NCBI GenBank assembly: GCA_026388155.1
Contig: JAPLKI010000006.1
Span: 68,401-132,400, forward strand
Source: Elusimicrobiota bacterium
GTDB taxonomy: Bacteria; Elusimicrobiota; Elusimicrobia; Elusimicrobiales; UBA9959
DNA: 64,000 nucleotides
Reading direction: 5' to 3'
Part shown: piece by piece, positions 4,495 to 63,449 of the stretch
Position numbering within the stretch: the first letter of the stretch is position 1
How the letters are laid out: every line of letters starts with the position of its first letter
The notes under the pieces: model-generated
What the model was told of the DNA's origin: nothing
Databases searched by the model: none
What the model saw: only the letters and a program-made list of their open reading frames with translations
Translations under genes and position numbers: made by a program

Positions 4495-7400
4495 CTATTT
4501 TGCAAGTTTATCCCCGATATCCTTCAGGTCCGGATTGATTTTCGCCGCTCTGTCCACGAAAGTTCTGACATCGTCCTGATTTCCGGTTTTTACGGCGGTC
4601 CGGGCCAGGTTCAGCCAGATATCTCCGTCGTAGGAGTCGGCCTTGGCGGCCTTCATATAAAAAGCTCGCGCCTCGTCGTATTTGCCGAGCGAGAAACTTA
4701 TGTTGCCCAGGTTATTGATGGCTGCGGCATTTTTAGGGTCTTTCTCAAGCACCTTGTTCAGGCGCTTTATCCCCTCATCATAATCCTTGTACTGGCCCGC
4801 CAAAATACCGAGGTTCAGATTGGCGTCCAGATCGCTTGGGTTTTCACGCAGCACATTTCCGTAGTATTTTTTGAAATATTCATATCGCGCCTTCATCAGA
4901 ACGTCAACGGCCCCCGTCACCCTTTCAGCAAGATTCGGAAGATCGTATTTTTCGTCTCCCGTTTCGGCGAGGGTAACCGGTTCGAACTCGCTCCAGGCCG
5001 CGTGGGTGTCTATTATCCTGACATCCGCGCCGGCTTTTTTGTACATGTCGGCCTGGTGAACTATGGCGTCATAAATATTAGTTCCCACCATGGTGGTTTC
5101 AAGCCCCACCCACCAAGTGTTGTTGTAATTTATAAGATATTCTTCAGGGATGCCGACCTCCTTGGCTTCCGAGGCGCCGGTGTCGAACATCATTGATATG
5201 TGCGCGGGGTAATCAAGCAGGGCCGTGTGTACGCCTGAGGCCTCAAGCATCGAGGTGAACAGCGCCGTCAGGTCGTCGCAGTCGCCGCTTCTGAGCTTCA
5301 GGGTGGTGCGGGGGAACTGCACGGTGTCCAGGGACAGATCCTTTGCGGATGAGGATTTTATAGCCGCGTACGGGTTTGTCGGGTCCGACAAGTAGCTTAC
5401 CCCGTGCTCGCCCAGCGCCTCCCAGACCATCAGGGCCGTAACCAGGTTTTCGTTTAAAAGGTCCGATTCTTTTTCAAACTTTTTCTTGTTGCTCAGCGCG
5501 TAACGGTCAAAAGCGAACACCGGGGTGTCTTTGGGAGTGATGAAGTTCCCCATGCGCTCCGCCCTGTCCCACACTATGGCGTTCTTTGACAGAACCTTTA
5601 CCGGCTTGTTCAGCTGGAAAGTTTTCTCCTGCCCGTCCATATAATAGGTCAGCGTCAACTGGCATTGCACCGGCGTATCCTCGGTGATGCTCAGTATGCG
5701 GTTGTTCAGGGTAGCCATCAGGTCCACTTTGGCGGTGGCTTTGGGACCTATTTCCGGCACCACGGTGTCGGTGGGAAAATCCATAAAATCCTTGAAGTAG
5801 AAGGAAAGCTTGACGTTGCTGAAGGCGGTGTCGGTGTTGTTTTTCACCGTCACCCTGCCCACCGGGTTTTTGAGATAGTGCTTATAATTTGCCGAGAATA
5901 TATAGTTAAGCTCGGTGGGCACTATTTCCATGGGAGCCATGTTTTTGGCGTCGCCCGTATATGAGCCGTCGGCGGAGGCGGACTGCACCTGCACTCTTTC
6001 CGCCGGCTCCTGAGGGCCTTCTAAAAACACCTCCACGGGCTCGCTCATTTCGCCTGTGGAACCGGTAACGGAAACACTGACCACGGAATAATAATAGGTG
6101 GCGTTCAAAGCCAGACCGGAGTCGGAATACTCGGGCTTAACGGGCGAAGCCACAAGCTTGGGTTCCACGTCCGGATTATTGGCCCTGTAAAGGACGAATT
6201 TCTTGATCCAGGGGCCGGCTTTAGTCTGCCAGGAAAGTTTAACCGCGGCTCCTTCAACGGAAGCCGCCAGCAGCGGGGCCTCGGGTATGTAATCCAGGCT
6301 GAAGGCGAGTATCCTCGCGCCCTCTTTGTCTGAAATGTAGAGCGTGTTGCCTCTTACGGCAAGATACTGCGGGTCCAGCAGTTCCCGCTCGCCCTTGCCT
6401 TTGGCGAAAAAGCTGGCCGTGAATTTGCCGTTTTCGTCAAAGACCTTCACATTTGAAGCTCCCTTGTCAAGAATATAGAAATAGCCTTTGCCGTCGTAGG
6501 CGAGCGCCACGGGGTTCTGCAGATCGCCGGAATCCTCCCAGATCCTGAGAAATTTGCCCGAAGCGTCGGTCACTATCACCTTCTTAAGCCCGGCATCCAG
6601 AATATAAACGTTCCTGTTATTGTCCAGGCTCACGCTGATCGGTTTCTGCAGGATAATGCCGCCGATCTTCGGGCCCGCGGTGAACAGAAAAAACCCGTCG
6701 GAATTAAAGGCCTGCATCCGCTTATTGCCCGTGTCGGCTATGTATATATTGCCCTTGCTGCTTACGGCAAGGCCGGAAGGGCTGTCAAAATTGCCCTCCT
6801 TTGAACCGCTTTCGCCGAACGAATTCACGAAAGTGTCCGAGGCGTCAAAGATCTGCAGCCTGTCATTGCCGGTGTCCGCCACGTAAAGCCTGCCCGCCGA
6901 ATCGGAGGCGAAACCAGCGGGGTTTTTCACCTGGCCCTGTTCTTTGCCCTGGCGCAGCAGCGTTTTTTTGCCGGAAGCGTCTATGCGCGCGGCCTCGCGG
7001 CCTTCCGGCAGCCAGGCGACTATCGCGCCGTTGGGCCTTACCACAAAAGCCTCGGCCTTGAAAGCGTATTTACTGGAAGGCCCTTTTATATTAAAGCGGC
7101 CCGCGGCTGCGGCTTTTTCCAGCTTCATTTCCGGCAGCTGACCCTCAAGGTTTATGATGGAAACTTTTTTATTGCCTTCGTCGCAGAGATAAAGCAGGCC
7201 GGCGGCGTCAAGCGTTATATCGCTTAATTTCAGAAATTCGCTCTTGCCCTTGCCCCTGGTGCCGAAAGTTCCCGCCACCTCTCCGTTCTGGTCCAGCTCC
7301 CGCACCTTCCCCTCCTTGCCGTTTACGACATACACAACGCCGTACTCGCTTACGGTCATGGCGTTGTTTTCCATGGAATATTCTTTTACAAGCCTGCCGG

Positions 7401-9045: not shown

Positions 9046-10959
<1,914 letters not shown>

Positions 10960-10964
10960 CGAAA

Positions 10965-11047
10965 GGGGATAGCGTATAGAGACTAGGGTTTAGGGAAGGA
11001 GTTCCTTATTTCGGAACCCTATACCCTCGCCCCTATACGCTGCTATT
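10965..11047. repeat. Family-A palindromic element copy A2, located in sdhA-sdhB intercistronic gap
   Basis: ggggatagcgtatagagactagggtttAGGGAAGGAGTTCCTTAtttcggaaccctataccctcgcccctatacgctgctat; arms gatagcgtatag / ctatacgctgctat. Confidence 0.65.
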
Positions 11048-11882: not shown

Positions 11883-11891
11883 AAGAACGGC

Positions 11892-11975
11892 AGGGGATAG
11901 CGTATAGGGGTTAGGGATTAGGGAAGGAGTTTCTTATTTTTGATCCCTATACCCTCGCCCCAAGCCCCTCTACCC
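11892..11975. repeat. Family-A element copy A3
   Basis: ggggatagcgtataggggttagggattAGGGAAGGAGTTTCTTAtttttgatccctataccctcgcc. Confidence 0.6.
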
Positions 11976-11993: not shown

Positions 11994-12027
11994 GGCCGTC
12001 TGATGAGCATAGCTCTTGTCACGGCAC
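11994..12027 (+). promoter_or_regulatory. conserved 5' leader motif GGCCGTCTGATGAGCATAGCTC…ACGGCAC (copy 1 of 2)
   Basis: 22-nt identical / ~30 of 34 nt shared with 30904-30937; both lie shortly upstream of plus-strand genes. Confidence 0.3.
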
Positions 12028-12059
12028 TGGCATAGCCTTGAAAAACACCGATTTTTAAT

Positions 12060-12093
12060 GTACTATATAGTAGACATCTGTCTACTATATATG
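12060..12093. promoter_or_regulatory. near-perfect palindromic operator abutting MNT start codon
   Basis: ACTATATAGTAGACA tc TGTCTACTATATAT immediately before ATG 12094. Confidence 0.45.
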
Positions 12094-12699
12094 ACAACAT
12101 CTATCACACAAGGCATTTTTGGCCGGAAGTCCCGCCTGGAAGTTTTACGCTGTCTTTACGATTCGGGAGAAGAACTTACGGGGCGTGAAATAGCCAGGCG
12201 CTCCGGCTTCAGCCCCCAGCAAACCCACAACGAACTTAAGGCGCTGGTTTCACTGGGAATCGCGGAACGGAAGATAGCGGCGCCGGCCCATTTGTTCCGC
12301 CTGAACAGGGAACATTGGGTAGTTAAAGATGTGGTTAAGGTTGTTTTTGAGAAAGAAAAACAGTGGTTGGATGAACTACTTAAGGAATTCGGCGGGAAAC
12401 TGCCGCATTCGGTAAAATCCCTTATTCTTTTTGGAAGCGCGTCGCGCAGCCAGCTCCGGCCGGAAAGCGACATAGATCTGTTGGCTTTGGTTGAGAACGA
12501 AAAAGACGAGAAAGAAGTGGTGGATTGCTTCAGCGAGCATGGCCCAAAAGTGTTGGCACGGTATCATTATCCGCTGGCCCCTGTTATTTTAACCATGGAT
12601 GAATTCCGCAAACGGTACAAACAAAAGGATAAATTCGCCCGGGAAATCCTGAGAACAGGGAGAGTTGTACGAGGGGAGTTGTTTACGGAAATTCTATGA
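12094..12699 (+). CDS. winged-helix + minimal nucleotidyltransferase (MntA-like antitoxin)
   Basis: wHTH (GREIARRSGFSPQQTHNELKALV) followed by NTase motif LILFGSASRS…ESDIDLL; 4-nt overlap (ATGA) with downstream HEPN gene. Confidence 0.7.
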   Translation, partial: TTSITQGIFGRKSRLEVLRCLYDSGEELTGREIARRSGFSPQQTHNELKALVSLGIAERKIAAPAHLFRLNREHWVVKDVVKVVFEKEKQWLDELLKEFGGKLPHSVKSLILFGSASRSQLRPESDIDLLALVENEKDEKEVVDCFSEHGPKVLARYHYPLAPVILTMDEFRKRYKQKDKFAREILRTGRVVRGELFTEIL

Positions 12700-13100
12700 C
12701 GCCAAAAGAAACCCGTCTCACAAAAATTTCACGCGACCGCTATACCCTTTACTGGGACAAAGCGATGGAGTTCTTTGAAGCCATGGTGGATGCTTCCCAG
12801 AAAAAGAACTGGAACGCCACGGGCCTGGCCGGCGTTCACTGCTGTATATCGGCGACGGACGCTTTATTGGTAAAACACGCGGGTATCCGTTCCTCGTCGG
12901 ATTCCCACCAGGATGTGGTGGGGCTGTTGAGCGCCAAAATCAGCGATCCTGATATTTCCAGACAGGCAAAAAGGCTGGGAGAGATCCTGGCCCAGAAAAA
13001 CCTGATTGAATACGTTGACAAATCTTTCCCGGAAAAAAACGCGCAAGCCTTAAAAATCAGCGTGGAGCGATATATTGAATGGATCAGGAAACTTCTTTGA
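12696..13100 (+). CDS. HEPN-domain protein (HepT-like toxin)
   Basis: 134 aa all-helical, partner position downstream of MNT; HEPN-like R-x4-6-H region (SSDSHQDV). Confidence 0.65.
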   Translation: MTPKETRLTKISRDRYTLYWDKAMEFFEAMVDASQKKNWNATGLAGVHCCISATDALLVKHAGIRSSSDSHQDVVGLLSAKISDPDISRQAKRLGEILAQKNLIEYVDKSFPEKNAQALKISVERYIEWIRKLL

Positions 13101-13357
13101 GGAAACAGTCATGGGGTTGCCCATTCCGCCGCGTAGGAAACCCTCCCGTGGTTTCCCTCCAACCCGGATTGTGGGGTTGGAGCCTCCCATCCGCTATGCG
13201 GCTACAGAGCAATCCCATGCCTGTCCCTCCTTATATAATAGGTGTCCCCGCCCTTATCGTAGATACGGCAATAATTACCCACCCGGTGGAAAACTTATGG
13301 GGAATAAGGTGACAGGCCACTTTTGGTATTAAGGATATTTGTTTACCACTGGGCGGG

Positions 13358-13394
13358 CCCCGCACTTTTTCCGAAATGGGCCAAAGTGCGGGGC
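13358..13394. repeat. Family-B hairpin copy B1 (CCCCGCACTTT–14 nt–AAAGTGCGGGG)
   Basis: perfect 11-bp stem; orphan copy without downstream SD/start. Confidence 0.6.
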
Positions 13395-13443
13395 GGGTAA
13401 ATGTGGATGTACCTAAATTAAGGGTGGGAAGTGTTATATAAAA

Positions 13444-13736
13444 AGTCGCCAGCGGATTTTCTGCGCGCTCCTTAGAGGGTTTAAGCACGGGGTCTGGAGC
13501 GTATCGCTATCATTAGCGACGGCGGTGAATGTTTGAGCCGAGCACTGTGTGCGAGGCGAGTTCGCACGCCGGCGTAAGACCCCGTGCTTATCCGCCAAAA
13601 CCCGGTCTTGGAGCGCGCAGGAAATTTGCTGGCGACTTATAAAGTGAAAAAGGTACTTTTTCCGGCGGAATGGGCAGCCCCATGACTGGCCCTCTCCCCG
13701 GAGTTCGCAGGAAATTTGCCGGCGACTACATTAAGA
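13444..13736. repeat. Family-C multi-stem element, upstream of fumarase (with duplicated 3' arm)
   Basis: outer stem agtcgccagcggattttctgcgcgctcc / ggagcgcgcaggaaatttgctggcgact; inner stems ttaagcacggggtct/agaccccgtgcttat, tcgcta/tagcga; 3' arm repeated at 13706-13727. Confidence 0.55.
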
Positions 13737-13753
13737 AATAAATAAGGAGATTT

Positions 13754-15382
13754 ATGGCTGAAACCAAACTTACATTCAAATATCAGGAAATGTTCGAGCT
13801 GACCAAGGGCAAGACCAAATTCCGCCTGCTTACTAAAGAGGGCGTGAAAGTTATAAAAGCCGGGGGACGCGAAATACTTGAGATAAAGCCTGAGGCGCTG
13901 GCCGCGCTCGCCCGCGAAGCCGTGCGCGATGTTTCCTTCCTGCTCCGCACCGCCCACCAGGAACAGGTGGCCAAAATTTTCAACGACCCAGAAGCCTCCG
14001 AAAACGACAAATTCATCGCTTATTGCCTGCTGGAAAACGCCGCCATTTCGGCCAAATTCGAGCTGCCGTTCTGCCAGGACACCGGCACCGCCACCGTGGT
14101 CGCTAAAAAAGGCGAACAGGTGTGGACCAGCGCGAACGACGCCGAATGGCTTTCAAAAGGCATCTGGGAGACCTACACCGCGGAAAACCTGCGCTATTCC
14201 CAGACCCTGCCGCTTACAATGTACGAGGAAAAGAACTCCGGCAACAATTTACCCGCGCAGCTGGACCTATACGCCGTGCCGGGCATGGAGTATAATTTTT
14301 TAATTGTCACAAAAGGCGGCGGCTCGGCCAACAAAATCATGCTCTACCAGGAAACCAAGGCCACCCTGACCCCTGAAAAATTAAAGCCCTTCCTTATTGA
14401 AAAAATGAAGTCGCTCGGCACCGCGGCCTGCCCCCCCTACCACATAGCTTTCGTGATAGGCGGAACCTCGGCCGAGATGTGTTTAAAAACCGTGAAGCTC
14501 GCCTCCGCCGGCTACCTGGACGGGCTCCCCGAAACCGGCAATGAAGGCGGCCGGGCCTTCCGCGACAAGAAACTGGAACAGGAACTGCTTAAAGCCTCGT
14601 ATAAACTCGGCTACGGCGCGCAGTTCGGCGGCAAATATTTCGCGCACGACATAAGGGTAATAAGACTGCCCAGGCACGGCGCGTCATGTCCCATAGGAAT
14701 GGGGCTCTCCTGCTCGGCGGACAGGAACATACTGGCGAAAATAGACAAGAACGGCCTCTGGATAGAAGAGCTTGAAAAGGACCCGGGCCGGCTTATCCCC
14801 GCGGAGATACGCTCTAAATTCTCGTCGGCGGCGCAATGCGTCAGCATAGACCTGAACCGGCCCATGAAGGAAATACTGGCCGAGCTTTCCAAACATCCCA
14901 TAGGCACGCGGCTCTCGCTTAACGGGCGCATAGTGGTGGCCAGGGATATCGCCCACGCAAAATTCAAGGCGCTGCTGGACGGCGGCAAGGACCTGCCCGA
15001 ATACCTTAAAAAGCACCCGGTCTATTACGCGGGCCCGGCCAAGCAGCCTGAGAACAAACCCTCCGGCTCGTTCGGGCCCACCACGGCGGGCCGCATGGAT
15101 CCCTACGTGGACCCGCTCCAGGCCAAAGGCGCGTCCATGGTGATGATAGCCAAGGGCAACCGCTCGCAGGCCGTCACCGACGCCTGCAAAAAATACGGCG
15201 GTTTCTACCTGGGCTCCCCCGGCGGGCCGGCCGCCCTTCTGGCGGAGCGCAATATAAGGAAAGTGGAAACGCTGGACTACCCGGAACTTGGAATGGAAGC
15301 CGTGTGGGCGATAGAGGCGGAAGACTTTCCCGCTTTCATACTGGTGGACGACAAGGGCAATGATTTTTTCCGGAAGATATGA
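13754..15382 (+). CDS. fumA: class I (Fe-S) fumarate hydratase, fused alpha/beta type
   Basis: [10 protein letters not shown]…, catalytic/ Fe-S Cys pattern, 542 aa; AAGGAG RBS. Confidence 0.9.
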
Positions 15383-15456
15383 CCTCCCCCGCACCCGACT
15401 TCCGCAATGAGGCACCCTGACGCCCGCGTATCTTGCTGGAACGGGCGCCGGCGCTT

Positions 15457-15619
15457 TCCCCGCGCGCTCCGGGACCGGGTTTTAAAGAAGAATCCTGAAG
15501 TCTTCCGCCGGCTCCGGAACGCGTCTGAAAGACAATGCTTTCAGACTTGAACGGTCCTCACCGTCGCGGAGCGATCCACTCCAGACTTCAGGATTAAACC
15601 CTCTAAGGAGCGCGCGGGG
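15457..15619. repeat. Family-C multi-stem element, downstream of fumarase, inverted relative to upstream copy
   Basis: ccccgcgcgctcc…aatcctgaagtct pairs with agacttcaggattaaaccctctaaggagcgcgcgggg; shares exact 22-mer gcgcgctccttagagggtttaa (as reverse complement) with 13463-13484. Confidence 0.55.
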
Positions 15620-15625
15620 AAAACA

Positions 15626-16129
15626 CCACCGCCCTTTGACTCTTCCCTTTTTTACAACAAGTTTCTTCCTTGAATAAATGGAGCGGGTGCTGCCGGAGCC
15701 GGGTTAGCGGGGCCTTCGCGAACCTGAGACTTACGCAAGCGCCGAAGGTGAGTGATGGAAGCCGGCCACGGTGTGGACGGCTGTCCCCGCGTTCCGGTCC
15801 GGCGGCAGGCCCAGCCCTTTTGGCCCAGAAGCCATAGCTAATTAGCTCCAGCTTGTATAATTGACTGTTGCCGCAAAGCCAAAAGAGCTGGGCAGGCCCC
15901 GCGAACCCGTAAGGCCGGCTGCCGGATAAAAAACATTCCCCCCTCTTACCCTTGAGGCACCCGGATTTCAAGAGAGATGCCAATGAAGAGACGGTGATTT
16001 TTAGGGGGCCTGCGGAAGTCCGGAAAAGAGCGGGGCAGGCCCCGCAAAAATTCCTGGTTAAATGTTGGGGGGTTTCAGCGGAATTCCAAAACAGTTCTAA
16101 AACAATATTGTGTCCCCGGATTCCCGGAG
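15626..16129. other. ~500-nt structured GC-rich non-coding region (candidate ncRNA; identity unresolved)
   Basis: no credible ORF (only low-complexity Arg/Gly-rich frames); duplicated hairpin GCKGGG-CAGG-CCCCGC at ~15888 and ~16029 with shared AAAAGAGC prefix; weak GGAAGUCCGG P4-like / CCGGAAC SRP-like words. Confidence 0.2.
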
Positions 16130-16279
16130 TTACAGCTTATCGGCGGGAATGCGAACCACTTTACCGTTTTTCCAGACAGCCAGCGGCCGGCCGGACTTCT
16201 TGTGCTCCGCAACAACCTTTCGCACCGCGCTTTTCATGGCCAATTCAGCTTTATCCTGCAAGGAAAGTCTTTTCTTCAT
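16130..16279 (-). CDS. small protein (49 aa) immediately downstream of zeta-like kinase; MazE/AbrB-like VRIPA strand
   Basis: ATG 5 nt after toxin stop; MKKRLSLQDKAELAMKSAVRKVVAEHKKSGRPLAVWKNGKVVRIPADKL; not in ORF track (under length cutoff). Confidence 0.4.
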   Translation of the reverse strand: MKKRLSLQDKAELAMKSAVRKVVAEHKKSGRPLAVWKNGKVVRIPADKL

Positions 16280-16285
16280 GCAGCC

Positions 16286-16858
16286 TCAAATCTCTCCGGT
16301 AATATTTTCGAACAACGCGGCATCTATGACTTCCAAATGCCCGTTGTTTCCCTTCGCAATCAAGACCGGCTTGGCTCCCGCATTATTAAACAACATCCAG
16401 GAATTTGCCAGCGGTTTATACAACTTGAAAAAATTGGGAATGGACCGGCTAAACCGGCGTTCAATATCCTCCGCGGGAACATCGTGTCCGCCTGAGGCGA
16501 CCCTCTCCTTAATCCTGACAAGCGAAAGGCTGGGACCCGGCACCCATAGAAAAAAAATATGCACTTTATACCCGCGAGCTTTAAGACGCTTAAATAAATT
16601 CAGACAGGTTTTTCCCGAAAGGGTGGTCTCAAATCCAAAATCCGCGCCAATCCCCGCAAAATCATGTATACGGGTTAAAACCAGTTTACCAGCCTTGATG
16701 GCCGCCGCGCGCGGCACAAAAGGAGACAAACCCTGGGCTATCAAATCGGCATTGACAAAATTGGGGCATTTGGCGTAATACGGCAGAAATTCTTTGGCAA
16801 AAGTGGTTTTTCCCGCCCCATTCGGCCCCGCAACCACATAGACATTCTTAATCCTCAT
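16286..16858 (-). CDS. zeta-toxin family P-loop kinase
   Basis: Walker A VVAGPNGAGKTTF, FETTLSG, ~190 aa; typical zeta/PezT-like architecture. Confidence 0.6.
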   Translation of the reverse strand: MRIKNVYVVAGPNGAGKTTFAKEFLPYYAKCPNFVNADLIAQGLSPFVPRAAAIKAGKLVLTRIHDFAGIGADFGFETTLSGKTCLNLFKRLKARGYKVHIFFLWVPGPSLSLVRIKERVASGGHDVPAEDIERRFSRSIPNFFKLYKPLANSWMLFNNAGAKPVLIAKGNNGHLEVIDAALFENITGEI

Positions 16859-23116: not shown

Positions 23117-23169
23117 CCCGCACTTTTTCCGAAGAGGGCCAAAGTGCGGGGCAAGGGAGAACACAAAAA
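23117..23169 (+). promoter_or_regulatory. Family-B hairpin copy B2 fused to SD (…AAAGTGCGGGGCAAGGGAG–N12–ATG)
   Basis: cccgcactttttccgaagagggccaaagtgcggggcaagggagaacacaaaaaATG. Confidence 0.5.
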
Positions 23170-26400: not shown

Positions 26401-26460
26401 TTCCGCTAAGGAATTCCTTCCCTATTCGCTACTCGCTAACCCCTATACGCTTTCTTCAAC
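26401..26460. repeat. Family-A element copy A4 (inverted core AAGGAATTCCTTCCCT)
   Basis: ccgctaaggaattccttccctattcgctactcgctaacccctatacgc. Confidence 0.5.
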
Positions 26461-28496: not shown

Positions 28497-28620
28497 ATAA
28501 GAAGAAGCGAATAGGGGTTAGCGAATAGCGATTAGGGGAGGAGTTTCCTTCAACACCACAAACCTCTATTCGCTATCCACTGCCCTTTTGCTATTCGCCA
28601 TTCGCTATTTCGCTACCCAC
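28497..28620. repeat. Family-A element copy A5 (core GGGGAGGAGTTTCCTTCAA with GCGAATAG/CTATTCGC arms)
   Basis: gcgaataggggttagcgaatagcgattaggggaggagtttccttcaa…ctattcgctatcc…ctattcgccattcgctatttcgct. Confidence 0.55.
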
Positions 28621-33095: not shown

Positions 33096-33104
33096 AGCAG
33101 GCAA

Positions 33105-33433
33105 AAAACCTGCGCAAGTTTACCGACCATTAAGGCTCCTGCTGCCTTTTCCACAAAAACCTGCGCAAGTTTATCGGCCATTAAGGCTCCTGCTGCCTTT
33201 TCTCCGCCCCGCCATAAAATAAACCGCCGGGAAGATATGCCCGTAAAAAGGCATAAAAAGCATAAAAAGGTACCAGGTACCTTTTTAAGGGTTGGTTCCC
33301 GATAAATTATCCTTATCTTATAAGCATTTTCTCTATACTAATATAAGGCTCCTGCTGCCTTTTCTCCGCCCCGCCATAAAATAAACCGCCGGGAAGATAT
33401 GCCCGTAAAAAGGTACCTGGTACCTTTTTAAGA
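33105..33433. repeat. cluster of direct repeats: 2 x ~47-bp unit (AAACCTGCGCAAGTTTAYCGRCCATTAAGGCTCCTGCTGCCTTTTC) and 2 x ~90-bp unit ending in GGTACCWGGTACC palindrome
   Basis: units at 33105-33151 / 33156-33204; 33183-33290 / 33346-33433. Confidence 0.6.
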
Positions 33434-33775: not shown

Positions 33776-33830
33776 ATTTTTATCTCCTTAAATAAATAAC
33801 CGCAAAATGTGAATTTCAAGCGGCCAGGGG

Positions 33831-33905
33831 CTAGCCGTGAGGGGTTGGGGAATGTAAAGAACTCCTTCCCTAATACCCTATACGCTGTACGCTAGATCCC
33901 AACCT
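33831..33905. repeat. Family-A element copy A6 (inverted core)
   Basis: gaggggttggggaatgtaaagaactccttccctaataccctatacgctgtacgc. Confidence 0.55.
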
Positions 33906-37170: not shown

Positions 37171-38331
37171 ATGAAACTGCTTGAATACGAAGGCAAGGAA
37201 ATTTTTGAAAAGTACGGCCTGCCTCTGCTAAAAAGGATAGGCGTGCTTAAAATAGGCGATAACCCGGAAAAACTGAAGTTTGACGGCCAGGGCCCCTGGG
37301 TAATAAAGGCCCAGGTGCTGGCCGGGGGCCGCGGCAAGGCGGGCGGCGTTAAAATAGCCAACACCGCCGACACGGCGCGTGAGCTGGCGCAAAAAATGCT
37401 CGGGATGCAGCTTATAACGCACCAGACACAGGGGCGCGCGCTTACGGTGGAGGAAGTGCTGGCGGAAGAAGCCTGCGACATTGAAAGGGAAATTTACATT
37501 TCAGTGGTGCTTGACCGCAAGGAGGGTGTGCCGGTGGTCATCGCGTCGGCCGAGGGCGGCATGTCCATAGAGGAGCTTGCAAAAACCCGGCCCGAACTTA
37601 TAATTAAAACGCCCGTGGACCCGGATTGCGGCCTGCTTGACTTCCAGGCGCGCGAACTCGCCTTTGGCCTGAAAATGCCGGCGGGCGTGTTCCGCGAATT
37701 TACGGAACTCGCTAAAGCCCTGGTGCGGCTGTTCATTGAGCAGGACGCAAGCCTGGTTGAAATAAACCCCCTTGCCATAACGCGCGCAGGGAAGCTGACG
37801 GCCATAGACTCAAAGATAGTGACCGACGACAACGCCTTTTTCCGCCATAAAGAACTGGCCTCAAAACCGGACCATGAGACCTCGGAAATTGAGAAAGAGG
37901 CCAAGGCCATAGGCATAAACTATATCGGCCTTGACGGCAATATAGGCTGCATGGTGAACGGCGCCGGGCTCGCCATGGCTACCCTTGACACAGTGAAACT
38001 TGCCGGCGGCAACGCGGCGAACTTCCTGGACGTGGGCGGCGGGGCCACGGTGGAGCAGATAACCAAAGCTTTCCAGATAATATTGAAGGACGAGAAGGTA
38101 AAGGCGATACTCATCAATATCTTCGGCGGCATAATGAAATGCGACAATATAGCCGCCGGCGTGGTTGAGGCCTCAAAAAAAGTGAGCATAGGCGTGCCGC
38201 TCGTTGTGCGGCTTGAAGGCACCAATGTGGAGCAAGGCAGGGCGATACTAGCCGCGTCAGGCATAAAAATAGAGCAGGCCGGTTCGCTTTGGGAAGCCGC
38301 GCAGAAAGCGGTGGGCGCAATCAGAGGCTAG
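37171..38331 (+). CDS. sucC: succinyl-CoA synthetase beta subunit
   Basis: MKLLEYEGKEIFEKYGLP…, ATP-grasp, GGRGKAGGVK; ends with TAG. Confidence 0.9.
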   Translation: MKLLEYEGKEIFEKYGLPLLKRIGVLKIGDNPEKLKFDGQGPWVIKAQVLAGGRGKAGGVKIANTADTARELAQKMLGMQLITHQTQGRALTVEEVLAEEACDIEREIYISVVLDRKEGVPVVIASAEGGMSIEELAKTRPELIIKTPVDPDCGLLDFQARELAFGLKMPAGVFREFTELAKALVRLFIEQDASLVEINPLAITRAGKLTAIDSKIVTDDNAFFRHKELASKPDHETSEIEKEAKAIGINYIGLDGNIGCMVNGAGLAMATLDTVKLAGGNAANFLDVGGGATVEQITKAFQIILKDEKVKAILINIFGGIMKCDNIAAGVVEASKKVSIGVPLVVRLEGTNVEQGRAILAASGIKIEQAGSLWEAAQKAVGAIRG

Positions 38332-38406
38332 CGGATAGCGTAGAGGGGATTAGGGAAGGAGTTCTTTACCTTCCCCAACCCCTCGCCTCTAACCCCTAGC
38401 CGCTCG
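38328..38406. repeat. Family-A element copy A7 in sucC-sucD intercistronic gap
   Basis: ctagcggatagcgtagaggggattAGGGAAGGAGTTCTTTAccttccccaacccctcgcctctaacccctagccgctc. Confidence 0.6.
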
Positions 38407-38442
38407 AAATTCACATTTTTGGTTATTCAAGGAGATAAAAAT

Positions 38443-40282: not shown

Positions 40283-40385
40283 AACAGCGGATAGGGGCTA
40301 GGGGCGAGAGGATCAGGGGAGGAGTTTCTTAATGCGGAAATAAGGGACTCATTCCCTAAGCGCCAACCGCTATACGCTATCCCCT
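40283..40385. repeat. Family-A element copy A8
   Basis: gcggataggggctaggggcgagaggatcAGGGGAGGAGTTTCTTAatgcgg…ccgctatacgctatcccc. Confidence 0.55.
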
Positions 40386-55283: not shown

Positions 55284-55879
55284 ATTTTATTATCGCCGAT
55301 GGAGCACTTTTTAAGCTCTTCCTCAAGTTTTTCCGGGATAATGCCTACAACTTCGGCCCGGGTGACAAGCTGGCCGCATTGCAGGCCAAGCATGATCGAA
55401 ATAAGACTGTACTTCGGTCCTTTACCCAGACCGGCCGCAAGCGACTCAAGCAAAAACCGCTGCGAGCCCTTAAGGGACTTCACCCCGGACGGGATAAAGC
55501 TTCGTTCTAAAGCGTTGGAAAGCGAACCCGTAAACGCATTGAGTATGATGTTTCCAAGTTCCGAAAGCAGCAGATCTTCCGCCTGGTTAATATCGACCAG
55601 GCGCGGAAAATCGTAATCGGGGAAACACATTGAGATATGCTTTCTATCCGCGGACCGGAAAATCAGCATGGCGGCAAAAGGGTGGTCTTCGGAAACTTCA
55701 AAATAGACGGCCGTCCCTCCCTCTCCCGCGCGGCGATCAAGCGCTAGTTCGCTTAAAGCGCCGCGTGACACGCTCATATCCGCCAGGCTCCAGCGGCCGG
55801 TGGAGGCTTTTGAGAGGCTGCTCAGGCATTTTTCAAGGCCCGCGGCTGCGATGGTTTCAAGGGCGCTGTCAGGGTTCAT
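55280..55879 (-). CDS. CheC/CheX-family phosphatase-like protein (copy 1)
   Basis: LSELGNIILNAF (ExGN-type motif); 199 aa; 65-70% identical to 56334..56942. Confidence 0.5.
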   Translation of the reverse strand: MNPDSALETIAAAGLEKCLSSLSKASTGRWSLADMSVSRGALSELALDRRAGEGGTAVYFEVSEDHPFAAMLIFRSADRKHISMCFPDYDFPRLVDINQAEDLLLSELGNIILNAFTGSLSNALERSFIPSGVKSLKGSQRFLLESLAAGLGKGPKYSLISIMLGLQCGQLVTRAEVVGIIPEKLEEELKKCSIGDNKI

Positions 55880-56333: not shown

Positions 56334-56942
56334 TTACCGCAAATCCCCTGAAAATTTTCCGCCGGAAGCTTTTTCAAGCTCTTCCTCAAGTTTTTTCGGG
56401 ATAATGCCTATAACTTCGGCCTGGGTGACAAGATGGCCGCATTGCAGGTCGAGCATAATTGAAATAAGGCTGTATTTCTGCTCTTTATCAAGGCCGGCTA
56501 AAAGGGACTCGAGCAAAAATTGCGGCTTGCCCGTCAGGCACTTCGGCTCGGACGGGACAAAGCTTAGTTTTAAAGCGTTGGAAAGCGAGCCCATGAACGC
56601 ATTGAGTATGATGTTTCCAAGTTCCGAAAGCAGCAGTTCATGCGCATGGTCTATATCGGCCATACGGGGGAAAGCGAAACCAAGGAAACACTTTGAGATG
56701 AGCTCTATATCAGCGGACTGAAAAATTATCATGACGGTGAAAGGATGGGCTCCGGAAATTTCAAAATATACGGCCGTCCCGCCCTTTCCCGCGCGGCGCT
56801 CAAGCGCTATTTCGCTTAAAGCGCTGCGGGATACGCTCACATCCGCCAGGCTCCAGCGGCCGGCGGATACTTTTGAGAGCTTTCCCACGCACTTTTCAAG
56901 GCCCGCGACTGCGATGGTTTCAAGGATGCTGTTAGAGTTCAT
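56334..56942 (-). CDS. CheC/CheX-family phosphatase-like protein (copy 2)
   Basis: LSELGNIILNAF motif; paralog of 55280..55879. Confidence 0.5.
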   Translation of the reverse strand: MNSNSILETIAVAGLEKCVGKLSKVSAGRWSLADVSVSRSALSEIALERRAGKGGTAVYFEISGAHPFTVMIIFQSADIELISKCFLGFAFPRMADIDHAHELLLSELGNIILNAFMGSLSNALKLSFVPSEPKCLTGKPQFLLESLLAGLDKEQKYSLISIMLDLQCGHLVTQAEVIGIIPKKLEEELEKASGGKFSGDLR

Positions 56943-61440: not shown

Positions 61441-62259
61441 ATGAAGGTATACGCCCGTATTTTAACCGCTGTTCTTGTTTCGGGTTTTGTCGCATCCGCC
61501 GCTTTTGCTGAGGATTCGGAGCCTGTTGAAATGACTGTCGGCTCGCCTCCGATGATATCCGACGATACAGGCACTCCCGGCCCTAAAAGCTGGGAGATCA
61601 ACGCCGTGTTCGATGCCGTTCTTTCCAAAGACAGCAAGTCTTATGAAGTGCCATTATTGGATATCAATTACGGCGTCGGGGAGACCATTCAGTTAAAATA
61701 CGAAGTTCCCTATGTTTTCAACGACAACACAGGCGAGAAAGCCCGCGGCATCTCAAATTCAAAAATTGGCGTGAAGTACAAGTTCTATGATAATGAAAAG
61801 AACGGTTTATCGCTGGCTGTGTATCCTCAAATCGAGTTTCTAACTCCGGGCTCAAAACTCGCAGGCGCCAGGGAAGAAGGCGGCGAAGGCGGAGTGGCCG
61901 AAAAGGGCGTAACTTACGAGCTGCCTTTTCTTTTAACGAAAGAGTTCGGCAAATTCTCCGTCACCGCGAATGTCTCCGGTGAAAGGTCCTCCGAGGATAC
62001 GCATATTGCCGCCTTCGCCAGCTTAGGCGCGGGGACGCGGCTTACGGACAAACTCGCTATTCTGTGTGAAATTGCCGGCTCTGATTTAAACAATGCCGAT
62101 GAAAAACGCGTTTTGGCGAATCTCGGTTTCAAATTTAAATTGAGCGACCAGCACGCCATCGTAGTATCCGCAGGGCGGGACATTCACGCGCCTGCCGGCA
62201 GCCAGAAATATTCTTACGCGACCATCGCTTATCAGCGGTTCATTGAATACAAAAAATAA
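61441..62259 (+). CDS. exported protein, possible outer-membrane beta-barrel
   Basis: signal peptide MKVYARILTAVLVSGFVASAAFA; alternating pattern; C-terminal aromatic residue region; AAGGAG RBS. Confidence 0.4.
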   Translation: MKVYARILTAVLVSGFVASAAFAEDSEPVEMTVGSPPMISDDTGTPGPKSWEINAVFDAVLSKDSKSYEVPLLDINYGVGETIQLKYEVPYVFNDNTGEKARGISNSKIGVKYKFYDNEKNGLSLAVYPQIEFLTPGSKLAGAREEGGEGGVAEKGVTYELPFLLTKEFGKFSVTANVSGERSSEDTHIAAFASLGAGTRLTDKLAILCEIAGSDLNNADEKRVLANLGFKFKLSDQHAIVVSAGRDIHAPAGSQKYSYATIAYQRFIEYKK

Positions 62260-62300
62260 TTCTGATTTTAGCGGCGGCGGGGAACCCTTGCAACTGCGAT

Positions 62301-63161
62301 TTACTGCGCCTGGGCGCGGTTCACTTCCGCCTTTTCCCCGCGCGCTTTGCGTTTTGGCACGATAAACGAATCCAATCGCTTGTTTTCCTCGTCAAATACG
62401 TTTATGGAAAGACCGTCTTCAGAAACGGAAAGCACGCAATAATTGTATTTTTTAAGAAACAGCTGGCTGTATGGATTCTTCTTTTTGAGGTCGTAAAGCG
62501 GGGCGCCGCCTCCGCCCGTTACTATATAACAAACGCCGTCTTTGTACAGCCGTTCATAATCGTGGTCGTGGCCGGCAAATACTATGTCCACTCCGTATTT
62601 TTCAAATAACGGGACCAGAGAGGCCGCCAGTTCCCGGTCGGAGCCGTGTTTGCCTGAGGTGAAAACCGGAATATGCATAATGACAGCGGTAAAGAGATTT
62701 TTGCCGGAAGAGGTTGATAATTGCGCTGCAAGCCAGTTGTATTGTTCCGAACCTTTCCCGAGCGCGCTTTCCGAATCCAGAATAATAAAATTGATCCCGT
62801 TCCTGTCCAGCGAATACCATTTCTTGTTGCCGGGAATTTCCAACTGCCGGAAATAGTTCTTGCCGTTGCCCTCGTGGTTGCCCCTCGCGGGAAAGAAATC
62901 CGTTTTGTTCCTTAATTCCGCGGTTATTTCGCGGAACCGGGCCCACTCATTGAGATTTTTGTCTTTGCCGACGAAGTCCCCCACATGAAAAACGGCGGCG
63001 GGTTTCCAGCGGAGGATTCCGGCCACTATTTTTTTGTGGATTTCATGGCCTGTCCTGCTGTCCCCGTAAACGACCGCCGTCGAGGAGGATAGATCCTGCG
63101 CGGCGGCCGGAAGAATTAAGAACAAGATCTGAAACACCGTCGGCAGTATAATCGCTTTCAT
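62301..63161 (-). CDS. calcineurin-like metallophosphoesterase (exported)
   Basis: GDSRTG…HVGDFV…GNHE…GHDH motifs; start set at MKAIILPTVF with AAGGA RBS. Confidence 0.7.
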   Translation of the reverse strand: MKAIILPTVFQILFLILPAAAQDLSSSTAVVYGDSRTGHEIHKKIVAGILRWKPAAVFHVGDFVGKDKNLNEWARFREITAELRNKTDFFPARGNHEGNGKNYFRQLEIPGNKKWYSLDRNGINFIILDSESALGKGSEQYNWLAAQLSTSSGKNLFTAVIMHIPVFTSGKHGSDRELAASLVPLFEKYGVDIVFAGHDHDYERLYKDGVCYIVTGGGGAPLYDLKKKNPYSQLFLKKYNYCVLSVSEDGLSINVFDEENKRLDSFIVPKRKARGEKAEVNRAQAQ

Positions 63162-63236
63162 AGAAGGTTTTTTCCTTTGTTCACAGGCCCATTGTATCAA
63201 AAATCGAGGAGTTCTCTCCCAGATAAAACATAAATA

Positions 63237-63449
63237 TTGAACAACAAGAATGCCGTTGTTTTTTCCGCCGGGCGCGATATTTACACGCCTGCCGGCAGCC
63301 AGGAATGTTATTACGCTACCACACTTACCGGCAGTTCATTAAATACAAAAATAATTCTGATTTTAGCGGCGGCGGGAAAAATTTACAACCACGATTTACT
63401 GCGCCTGGGCGCGGCCAAGAACGCCGCGCTCTTCCTTGAGCTCGCCTGA
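63237..63449 (+). pseudogene. C-terminal gene fragment derived from duplication of the 61441..62259 gene
   Basis: 70-aa ORF whose first ~35 codons align to last ~34 codons of upstream gene; no N-terminal part. Confidence 0.5.
63252..63414. repeat. ~160-bp diverged duplicate of 62158-62319 (3' end of 61441..62259 gene + convergent intergenic + last codons of neighbouring minus-strand gene)
   Basis: AVVFSAGRDIYTPAGSQ vs AIVVSAGRDIHAPAGSQ; shared …taattctgattttagcggcggcggg…gatttactgcgcctgggcgcgg. Confidence 0.7.

What the first reader, a model, noticed from the sequence alone, without database searches (positions are those of the whole stretch)
13444..15619. Fumarase gene bracketed by two related multi-stem elements (family C) in inverted orientation, at a TA-module-rich hotspot
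The upstream element (13444-13736) and downstream element (15457-15619) each fold into a long outer stem of about 28 bp with inner hairpins. They share an exact 22-mer, GCGCGCTCCTTAGAGGGTTTAA, in reverse-complement orientation (13463-13484 and 15594-15615). The upstream copy has its 3' arm duplicated (13610-13637 and 13706-13727). The surrounding segment between sdhB and the DnaJ-like gene also holds an MNT/HEPN pair, an orphan B hairpin, a roughly 500-nt structured non-coding stretch and a zeta-toxin module. The conserved TCA operon therefore looks invaded by accessory elements, and fumA itself may sit on a composite cassette.
Basis: seen in the sequence. Interest (0 to 1): 0.7.

Follow-up and report, generated by a model that had tools for sequence, protein, structure and literature searches.

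The report
Structured intergenic repeats flanking fumarase gene
Two diverged copies of a roughly 195-base, tightly folded non-coding element sit on either side of a native fumarase gene in an uncultivated Elusimicrobia bacterium; they belong to a small, lineage-specific family of RNA-like elements absent from Rfam, and they are not the ends of a transposon carrying the gene.

Summary
U (13442-13639, +) and D (15441-15636, sense on -) are full-length homologues, about 70% identical. Each folds into a 28-bp outer stem, two internal loops, a 12-bp stem and a three-way junction.

Nine distinct copies from seven related Elusimicrobia assemblies give strong covariation: 94% of cells paired and 43 of 67 pairs changed on both sides. 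The same strand always folds better, which points to a single-stranded, probably RNA, function. No Rfam, phage or plasmid match was found.

Copies occur between sdhB and fumA in either orientation, downstream of groEL, and upstream of tmk. There are at least 2-3 per genome, without target-site duplications and with variable outer stems.

U is part of a recurring module. A second structured element (E, 13103-13232) and U point away from each other, each preceded by a conserved about 65-nt box (M). D is paired back to back with a third element (X, 15676-15822). Apical domains come in two types that are exchanged between loci.

fumA is native: sdhCAB-fumA synteny holds in the ten loci from related Elusimicrobia that were fetched, and its GC content matches sdh. 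The composite-cassette idea is not supported. The function remains unknown. The best guess is a family of small structured RNAs driven by M.

The parts
13442..13639 (+). Element U: family-C copy with an alpha-type apical domain. P1 arms are 13443-13471 / 13610-13638 and the P2 stem is 13482-13495 / 13577-13590.
   Evidence: Folding, repeats, CM R1 at 206.6 bits, covariation. Positional orthologues are L007 9626-9826 and L016 5519-5723.
15441..15636 (-). Element D: family-C copy with a beta-type apical domain and its sense on the minus strand. It is convergent with the fumA 3' end.
   Evidence: Alignment. Fold is -120.6 kcal/mol on the minus strand versus -103.4 on the plus strand. CM R1 gives 208 bits on the minus strand versus 39.6 on the plus strand.
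13700..13727 (+). Orphan copy of a C 3' arm, 89% identical to 13610-13637. An equivalent orphan arm lies at L007 9436-9463.
   Evidence: It can replace the proximal arm only at a cost of about 23 kcal/mol.
13663..13688 (+). 26-nt fragment identical in sense to the 3' end of element E (96% complementary to 13106-13131). A scar of rearrangement.
13103..13232 (-). Element E: a second structured element of about 125 nt, with an outer stem plus three hairpins. It points away from U. Its sense is probably the minus strand.
   Evidence: 95% identical to L023 11735-11854, 81% to L016, 77% to L005. RNAalifold gives 7 of 38 compensatory pairs. The minus strand folds equally well or better in 4 of 4 copies.
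13231..13299 (-). M box, copy reading towards E.
   Evidence: nhmmer E = 2e-15; pattern search; alignment of 11 M copies.
13335..13445 (+). M box, copy reading towards U. It is interrupted by the 40-nt B-hairpin insertion at 13351-13390 and ends in TGTTATATAA just before P1 of U.
15676..15822 (+). Element X: a third structured element, back to back with D across a 39-nt spacer (15637-15675).
   Evidence: Homologues at L010 4126-4268 (+) and L007 8216-8358 (-). RNAalifold gives 14 of 46 compensatory pairs. The plus-strand orientation folds better in 3 of 3 copies.
13754..15382 (+). fumA, a class I fumarate hydratase of 542 aa. It is a native gene lying between the two C copies and is not part of the element.
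   Evidence: Pfam Fumerase and Fumerase_C, homologues, synteny, GC content.

Best explanation
U and D are two old, diverged paralogues of a small family ('C') of structured non-coding elements restricted to one Elusimicrobia lineage. Each is about 195 nt. From the outside in, it has a 28-bp terminal stem (P1), a conserved internal loop (UUAGAG / CGGUCUU), a short GGGUUU/AAACCC helix, a bulge, a 12-bp stem (P2) and a three-way junction (P3, and P4 capped by P5) with conserved unpaired bases.

Shown: the fold is maintained by compensatory change. It is maintained on one strand only. It is kept at orthologous sites across species.

Inferred: the element acts as an RNA. It is transcribed from the conserved M box that directly precedes it in most loci, or as part of neighbouring transcripts where M is missing, as for D.

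Inferred further: the long, sequence-variable P1 works as a processing or protection stalk, a likely double-strand RNase substrate. The conserved loops and junction are the part that binds a partner.

U belongs to a recurring divergent module E <- M' ... M -> C that sits in the sdhB-fumA spacer. D belongs to a second, M-less pair, D <-> X. Their flanking of fumA reflects the accumulation of such modules around this conserved operon junction, not a mobile cassette. Copies exchange their apical domains (alpha and beta types) by recombination or gene conversion.
For: Structure:
- MFE z-scores are -12.8 and -9.2.
- MAFFT plus RNAalifold on 4 copies gives 25 of 67 pairs with compensatory change.
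- In 9 distinct copies, 94% of cells are paired and 43 of 67 pairs change on both sides. 0 of 500 shuffles reach this, and slid controls give 38-47% paired.

Strand:
- The sense strand folds better in 10 of 10 copies, by 2-24 kcal/mol.
- At consensus pairs there are 21 G-U against 5 A-C.

Selection:
- U plus the M box upstream of it is 84% identical to the UBA9634 orthologue. fumA DNA is 81% identical and the rest of the spacer does not align.
- The orthologues differ by paired changes in P2.

Distribution:
- Copies lie in the sdhB-fumA spacer (window, L007, L016 on the plus strand; L018/L019, L027 on the minus strand), after groEL (L003 minus, L023 plus, truncated in L020-22), and before tmk (L005).

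M box:
- 11 full copies plus one truncated at the contig start of L003, found only next to C, E or X in about 440 kb of Elusimicrobia DNA.
- In each case the better-folding strand of the neighbouring element reads away from M.

Module:
- E <- M' M -> C recurs at three unrelated loci.

Mosaic:
- U versus L007: 92% in outer P1 but 62% in P4-P5.
- U versus L003: 42% in outer P1 but 90% in P4-P5.

Not a known family: no Rfam match.
Against: - There are no expression data, so transcription is inferred.
- The sigma-70 consensus scan finds no promoter in 12900-16300. M is therefore a promoter only by position and by its TATATAA box.
- D, L018/19 and L027 lack M.
- No terminator follows the element except in L003.
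- Orientation flips, orphan arms, truncated copies (L013 2157-2226), core replacement inside a shared outer stem (L016 versus L027) and assembly breaks at copies all resemble the behaviour of recombinogenic repeats more than that of a housekeeping RNA gene.
- G-U asymmetry would also fit a single-stranded DNA function.
- The 9-copy alignment was fitted to the model structure, which inflates pair counts somewhat.
- Sampling of loci was biased towards fumA and groEL neighbourhoods.
Confidence: 0.5

Rival explanations
1. C, together with E, X, M and the A and B repeats, is a selfish or semi-domesticated dispersed intergenic repeat of the ERIC / bcr1 / BIME kind. It spreads by an unknown transposition or recombination route. 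It is co-transcribed with neighbours and acts only in cis on mRNA ends, through stability, RNase cleavage or termination.
For: - Several copies per genome at unrelated intergenic sites, in both orientations.
- Contigs break inside copies.
- Fragments and orphan arms exist.
- Mosaic exchange between copies.
- The neighbouring B hairpin is a clear insertion.
- Copies lie at ends of highly expressed operons (sdh, groESL).
- Known MITE-like repeats such as bcr1 are transcribed and show compensatory changes (PMC3184786).
Against: - No target-site duplications.
- The outermost stem sequence is not conserved between loci.
- The exact-word scans found only one copy in the GTDB representative genomes and one in JGI metagenomes, so the copy number seen is low.
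- Orthologous copies are kept across species with paired changes.
- The three-way junction and its conserved unpaired bases are more elaborate than a stabilising hairpin needs.
- A dedicated M box travels with the element.
Confidence: 0.3
2. The elements act as DNA. They would be hairpin or cruciform sites for a recombinase, a single-strand origin or a primosome site, or a nucleoid protein. The strand bias would reflect a single-stranded DNA intermediate.
For: - Strand-specific folding also fits single-stranded DNA.
- Sequence is conserved inside the inner 17 bp of P1.
- Different cores (C in L016, X-like in L027) sit inside the same outer stem at the same site.
- Whole-module inversions occur at the groEL and sdhB-fumA loci.
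Against: - No recombinase, Rep or relaxase gene is seen near any of the loci (gene tables).
- No similarity to plasmids or phages.
- G-U-type pairs contribute far less stability in DNA.
Confidence: 0.1
3. U is a cis-regulatory leader, a riboswitch or attenuator, controlling fumA.
For: U, L007 and L016 lie 70-115 nt upstream of fumA on the same strand, with no terminator in between. L005 lies about 50 nt upstream of a tmk-like ORF on the same strand.
Against: - In L018/L019 and L027 the element in the same spacer is inverted.
- Other copies are convergent with groEL or fumA.
- Relatives L010, L013 and L015 have fumA without it.
- There is no expression platform: the RBS is 100 nt or more away and unpaired in the fold.
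Confidence: 0.05
4. One reading: U and D are the inverted ends of a composite mobile cassette that carries fumA.
For: The two copies are in inverted orientation around a single gene. Accessory genes lie nearby.
Against: - fumA keeps its place after sdhCAB in all relatives.
- U is orthologous in two other genomes that lack D.
- U and D are only about 70% identical and of different sub-types.
- No target-site duplications.
- fumA GC content is like that of the core genes.
Confidence: 0.03

Closest known systems
ERIC / IRU sequences of Enterobacteriaceae, and bcr1 of the Bacillus cereus group (MITE-like, transcribed, long imperfect palindromes)
   Same: - Intergenic, about 130-200 nt, folding into one long hairpin at the RNA level.
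- Found in either orientation and conserved between related species.
- bcr1 shows compensatory base changes. ERIC affects mRNA decay when co-transcribed (PMC3184786).
   Different: - Those repeats have conserved terminal inverted repeats and flanking target duplications (TA for ERIC, 5 bp for bcr1), and tens to hundreds of copies.
- C has neither, and only 2-3 copies per genome were seen.
- C has an elaborate three-way junction.
- C travels with a conserved upstream M box and a partner element (E or X).
BIMEs (mosaic REP clusters) of E. coli
   Same: Mosaic combinations of several distinct motifs (here C, E, X, M, A, B) in intergenic regions after operons. They are hot spots for rearrangement.
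   Different: REP units are 20-40 nt, occur in hundreds of copies and are linked to RAYT transposases (own knowledge). C is five times longer, low in copy number, and no RAYT was seen.
Orphan structured ncRNA motifs found by comparative genomics (the kind collected in Rfam, such as raiA, OLE, HEARO)
   Same: Lineage-restricted, with strong covariation, conserved unpaired nucleotides at junctions, and unknown function.
   Different: No Rfam family matches. C shows paralogue exchange, inversions and fragments that most such motifs do not.
RNase III processing stalks of rRNA and some sRNA precursors
   Same: A long terminal helix formed by the 5' and 3' flanks, variable in sequence but conserved in pairing, enclosing a conserved core (own knowledge).
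   Different: This is an analogy only. No cleavage data exist, and the inner half of P1 is conserved in sequence.

Membership tests
MITE / composite transposon ends | Terminal inverted repeats conserved in sequence among copies (the transposase binding site) | tested here: not met
   The outer 13 bp of P1 are only 31-62% identical between non-orthologous copies, while pairing is kept.
MITE / composite transposon ends | Target-site duplications flanking each copy | tested here: not met
   The longest shared flanking words are 3-4 nt in 8 of 9 copies. Only U shares TATAAA, which is part of the M box.
MITE / composite transposon ends | Many near-identical copies and a cognate transposase | tested here: inconclusive
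   Exact-word scans found 1 true hit in GTDB representative genomes and 1 in JGI metagenomes. At least 2-3 diverged copies per genome were seen. No whole genome could be scanned with the CM. No transposase appears in the gene tables of the loci.
Composite cassette carrying fumA | The bracketed gene moves with the ends (variable location, foreign composition) | tested here: not met
   sdhCAB-fumA synteny holds in L007, L010, L015, L016, L018 and L027, and sdhB-fumA adjacency in the shorter contigs L011, L013/14 and L019. GC content is like sdh.
REP / REPIN / BIME | 20-40 nt palindromic units (REPIN doublets of about 100 nt), hundreds of copies, RAYT gene | tested here: not met
   The unit is about 195 nt with a three-way junction, and the copy number seen is low. 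RAYT was not looked for genome-wide.
Integron attC site | Conserved R''/R' core sites (GTTRRRY) at the ends, a variable centre, and a cassette array next to intI | tested here: not met
   Here the ends vary and the centre is conserved. There is no GTTRRRY at the ends and no integrase in the neighbouring gene tables.
Riboswitch / cis leader of fumA | Fixed sense orientation upstream of the regulated gene, with an expression platform | tested here: not met
   The element is inverted in L018/19 and L027. Other copies are convergent with groEL or fumA. There is no terminator or RBS pairing.
Any Rfam 15 family (including 6S, Y RNA/YrlA, SRP, retron msr, group I/II introns, ribozymes) | A score at or near the family's gathering threshold | tested here: not met
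   There were 0 hits at gathering thresholds in the 64 kb window. Only chance-level hits with E >= 0.85 appeared in focused scans of U, D, X, E and M.
Retron ncRNA | A reverse transcriptase gene immediately downstream | tested here: not met
   None of the loci has an ORF with an RT domain next to the element (gene tables; Pfam).
Independent small RNA gene | Its own promoter and defined transcript ends | not testable with these tools
   A conserved M box with TATATAA lies upstream in 6 of 9 loci. The sigma-70 scan is negative. No expression data are available.

The most novel reading that the evidence does not exclude
C, E and X would be interchangeable 'plug-in' RNA genes of a previously undescribed modular system in Elusimicrobia. 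A dedicated promoter/operator box (M) drives whichever structured core sits in a locus-specific hairpin 'socket'. Cores and apical domains are swapped between sockets by hairpin-guided recombination. This would be a new way of moving and diversifying non-coding RNA genes, with the RNAs serving a shared, still unknown RNP function.
Probability: 0.12. Interest if true: 0.8.

Novelty: new member of a known kind. Interest (0 to 1): 0.5.

Why it matters
This adds a well-supported new structured non-coding family, and two companion motifs (E and X) with a shared upstream box, in a phylum with almost no cultured members and no described lineage-specific RNAs. The strand-specific covariation, low copy number and conservation at orthologous sites argue for a host function. 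The orientation flips, fragments and domain swapping show unusual evolutionary behaviour. Together they offer a tractable case for asking how structured RNA genes, or domesticated repeats, duplicate and recombine. The analysis also corrects a tempting but wrong reading that a core TCA-cycle gene is mobile.

Tried and rejected
- Rfam at gathering thresholds on the whole window, and at E <= 10 on three sub-regions: nothing credible.
- Exact-word scan of GTDB genomes with an 18-mer: 1 true hit and 2 chance hits. A gapped pattern in JGI metagenomes: 1 true hit and 1 chance hit. So the element is rare, or its core words vary.
- Phage and plasmid collections by blastn: no match.
- Viral contigs: 0 hits for the E word. 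The 32 hits for a 15-mer of C were all rejected by the CM.
- Sigma-70 and terminator consensus scan: no promoter, and terminator-like sites below chance level.
- Target-site duplication search: none.
- Coding potential: no conserved frame. Copies differ by 1-, 3- and 5-nt indels.
- 6S, Y-RNA/tRNA-like, k-turn, group II domain V, retron, attC and ssoA analogies were considered from memory. None fitted the sequence or the context.
- A short motif, CCCGACTTCCGCA, brackets D and X in inverted orientation and sits at both ends of contig L007. It is not above chance within the window and was left open.
- Literature searches for Elusimicrobia RNA motifs found nothing relevant.
- Verification of the 'HEPN' partner failed.
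- The window's own 174-kb contig was not retrievable, so copy number in this genome could not be counted.
Full report
OBSERVATION

The 22-mer GCGCGCTCCTTAGAGGGTTTAA occurs exactly twice in the window, at 13463-13484 (+) and 15594-15615 (-). No shuffle produced any match. The similarity is not limited to this word. U read on the plus strand and D read on the minus strand align over about 195 nt.

Each has a terminal stem of about 29-31 nt: 13443-13471/13610-13638 and 15440-15470/15607-15637. Each folds far better than shuffled controls. U(+) gives -127.2 kcal/mol (z = -12.8) and D(-) gives -120.6 (z = -9.2). The second copy of the 3' arm is at 13700-13727. I set the element boundaries at 13442-13639 and 15441-15636.

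ORGANISM AND GENE CONTEXT

The bracketed ORF (13754-15382) is a class I fumarate hydratase. It is 100% identical to a protein of an Elusimicrobia MAG on a 174-kb contig. All 120 listed homologues are 71-100% identical, and all but one of those that a source names are called Elusimicrobia.

Upstream lie sdhA and sdhB. The order sdhC-sdhA-sdhB-fumA is kept in UBA9634 (L007), L010, L015, L016, L018 and L027, and the shorter contigs L011, L013/14 and L019 keep sdhB next to fumA. fumA GC content (0.52-0.62) matches sdhA/B. The MNT-like pair and the zeta-toxin region are lower, at about 0.48-0.50. fumA is therefore a resident gene.

A REAL, CONSERVED STRUCTURE

An 18-mer scan of one genome per GTDB species found one true relative: Elusimicrobia UBA9634, downstream of groEL, 54 nt from a contig end. 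A gapped pattern in JGI metagenomes found one more, L005, just upstream of a tmk-like ORF.

A MAFFT plus RNAalifold analysis of these four copies gave 67 pairs, 25 of them with compensatory changes. A covariance model built from them then found further copies in DNA fetched around fumA and groEL homologues:
- L007 9626-9826 (+) and L016 5519-5723 (+), both upstream of fumA;
- L018 6489-6686 and L019 2408-2605, in the same spacer but inverted;
- L027 4663-4864 (-), right after sdhB;
- L023 12166-12367 (+), downstream of groEL;
- truncated copies at the ends of L020-L022.

For nine distinct copies, 94% of cells are paired and 43 of 67 pairs change on both sides. None of 500 shuffles reaches any of the five measures, and slid controls give 38-47% paired. 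That alignment is model-fitted, which favours the structure. The independent four-sequence result points the same way.

STRAND

In all ten full-length copies the strand I call sense folds better than its complement, by 2 to 24 kcal/mol. At consensus pairs there are 21 G-U against 5 A-C. The structure is therefore selected on one strand. That means a single-stranded nucleic acid, most simply RNA. U is sense on the fumA strand and D is sense on the opposite strand.

NOT A KNOWN FAMILY, AND NOT PHAGE OR PLASMID DNA

Rfam gave nothing at gathering thresholds for the whole window. Focused scans gave only chance-level hits. There is no similarity in the phage or plasmid collections. None of 32 viral contigs sharing a 15-mer passed the CM.

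NOT A TRANSPOSON END

No copy has a credible target-site duplication. The outermost 13 bp of P1 are 31-62% identical between non-orthologous loci, yet they stay paired. This is the reverse of what a transposase-bound terminal repeat shows. U has positional orthologues in UBA9634 and L016 with nearly the same outer stem. D has no counterpart downstream of fumA in any relative, where the next gene follows within about 150 nt or overlaps.

THE LARGER PICTURE AROUND U

Immediately upstream of C in the window, L007, L016, L005, L023 and, truncated, L003 lies a conserved box of about 65 nt that I call M. Its consensus reads roughly GTTTACCACYGGGYGGGTAAAT-GGATGTATCTAAATTAAGGGYGGGRA-n-TATATAA.

An inverted copy of M lies next to a second structured element, E (window 13103-13232). 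E is 95% identical to L023 11735-11854 and is also present in L016 and L005. The arrangement is therefore E <- M' ... M -> C. It recurs at three unrelated places: the sdhB-fumA spacer, downstream of groEL, and between an upstream ORF that ends in a cysteine-rich tail (possibly a reductase, not tested) and the tmk-like ORF.

In UBA9634 a third element, X, takes the place of E next to M'. In L027, M is followed by an X-like core enclosed by the same outer stem that encloses C in L016. An HMM of M finds it nowhere else in about 440 kb of Elusimicrobia DNA. For C, E and X the better-folding strand is always the one read away from M. This is why I read M as a dedicated promoter or operator. The generic sigma-70 scan does not call it.

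The space between the two M boxes takes up foreign DNA:
- a 40-nt B hairpin in the window, 13351-13390, absent from L016, L027 and L007;
- an HNH endonuclease gene in UBA9634;
- two unknown ORFs in L005.

In L027 a methyltransferase ORF likewise lies between C(-) and the M box in front of the X-like core, although no second M box is found there.

THE PICTURE AROUND D

D is back to back with X (15676-15822), separated by 39 nt, without M. X also lies between sdhB and fumA in L010. So U and D belong to two different modules.

PARALOGY AND EXCHANGE

The apical P4-P5 domain comes in two types. Alpha occurs in U, L003, L018 and the L022 fragment. Beta occurs in D, L007, L016 and L023.

The types do not follow the locus. 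U and its positional orthologue L007 are 92% identical in outer P1 but 62% in P4-P5. U and the groEL-linked L003 are 42% and 90% identical in the same two regions. The UBA9634 genome has one of each type. The window organism has U (alpha) and D (beta).

It probably also has a third, alpha, copy after groEL. Contigs from the same sequencing runs as the window's fumA contig break inside that copy. The orphan 3' arm (13700-13727, with a counterpart at L007 9436-9463), the E fragment (13663-13688) and a half copy in L013 (2157-2226) are scars of such recombination.

HOW IT MOST LIKELY WORKS

Shown: a conserved, strand-specific fold under purifying selection, present in a few diverged copies per genome, and associated with a private upstream box.

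Inferred: it is transcribed. The variable but always paired P1 is a processing or protective stalk. The conserved loops (UUAGAG/CGGUCUU, GGAGCG-A, YGUUYRAG, CGMGUUC) and the junction bind a partner.

I put 0.5 on 'functional structured RNA family' and less on the specific processing idea. The main rival, at 0.3, is an ERIC- or bcr1-like dispersed repeat acting only in cis. Such repeats are transcribed and can show compensatory change (PMC3184786), but they have conserved ends, target duplications and higher copy numbers. A DNA-level role (0.1), a fumA leader (0.05) and the composite cassette (0.03) fit less well.

VERDICT

The mobile-cassette reading of fumA is not supported. What is there is a new, lineage-restricted structured element family with companion motifs. 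It is a new member of a known kind and of moderate interest. Its function is open and can be tested directly with transcript data and a clade-wide model search.

Noticed in passing
window 15676-15822 (+); L010 4126-4268 (+); L007 8216-8358 (-); X-like core at about L027 5805-5925: Element X is a conserved, GC-rich structured non-coding element of about 145 nt. RNAalifold gives 14 of 46 compensatory pairs and there is no Rfam hit. It lies between sdhB and fumA in relatives but downstream of fumA here.
   Followed up: partly
window 13103-13232; L023 11735-11854; L016 5155-5266; L005 2545-2648: Element E is a four-way-junction-like element of about 125 nt. It is 95% identical between the window (sdhB-fumA locus) and GWF2_52_66 (groEL locus). 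It is always convergent with the upstream gene and divergent from C. There is no Rfam hit.
   Followed up: partly
window 13231-13299 (-) and 13335-13445 (+); 11 full copies in fetched loci: The M box has two GGGYGGG motifs about 30 nt apart, followed by TATATAA. It is found only next to C, E or X. It may be a dedicated promoter or operator. The four G-tracts could in principle form a G-quadruplex.
   Followed up: partly
window 13351-13390: The B hairpin (CCCCGCACTTT..AAAGTGCGGGG family) is a clean 40-nt insertion into the loop of a small hairpin in M, absent from L016, L027 and L007. It is flanked by GGGCGG on both sides. Other B copies are at 23117, 28740, 43633 and 48835. It looks like a mobile REP-like hairpin.
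   Followed up: partly
window 10958-11033, 11886-11961, 1178-1228, 38320-38370, 40283-40333, 33804-33895 / 38328-38419, 26412-26452 / 28505-28545: Family A repeats (GGGGATAGCGTATAGGGGTTAGGGATTAGGGAAGGAGTT...) are scattered through the window in both orientations. One follows sdhA and one follows sdhB.
   Followed up: no
L016 5519-5723 versus L027 about 5795-5935: At the same site, after the same M box and a 57-nt leader, L016 has a C core and L027 has an X-like core. Both are enclosed by the same outermost 10-bp stem (GGGGCGGCGG / CCGCCGACGCCCC). The core has been replaced inside a conserved hairpin.
   Followed up: partly
L007 9041-9400 / L008 8576-9454; ERZ1426829 contig: A free-standing HNH endonuclease gene (HNH_repeat plus HNH; weak IscB-like HNH match only) is inserted between the two M boxes in UBA9634. 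It is also upstream of fumA in another contig.
   Followed up: partly
window 15394-15414 (+) and 16003-16027 (-); both ends of L007: The short motif CCCGACTTCCGCA brackets D and X in inverted orientation. It also sits at both ends of the UBA9634 contig, with a 21-nt exact match. It is not above chance within the window.
   Followed up: partly
window 12696-13100 and 12016-12699: The upstream ORF is an HTH-fused MNT-like nucleotidyltransferase. Its 134-aa partner has no detectable family and is unrelated to the NTase_sub_bind partner found at the same position in L013, so the 'HEPN' label is unverified. This pair has lower GC content than its neighbours.
   Followed up: partly
window 16286-16858 (-): This is a zeta-toxin / AAA_33-like ORF on the minus strand. 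Two terminator-like hairpins containing a repeated 25-mer follow it on that strand, at 16045-16030 and 15900-15884.
   Followed up: no
window 33104-33430; 55308-55607 / 56371-56670; 62139-62319 / 63236-63414: Other local repeats include an exact 70-nt tandem-like duplication at 33182/33344 with nearby palindromes. There are also two pairs of diverged 1.06-1.1 kb-spaced repeats, probably paralogous genes.
   Followed up: no
L018 9684-11126; L019 5650-7092: An RtcB RNA ligase gene lies about 1.3 kb downstream of fumA in the genomes where C is inverted. This is probably a coincidence.
   Followed up: no
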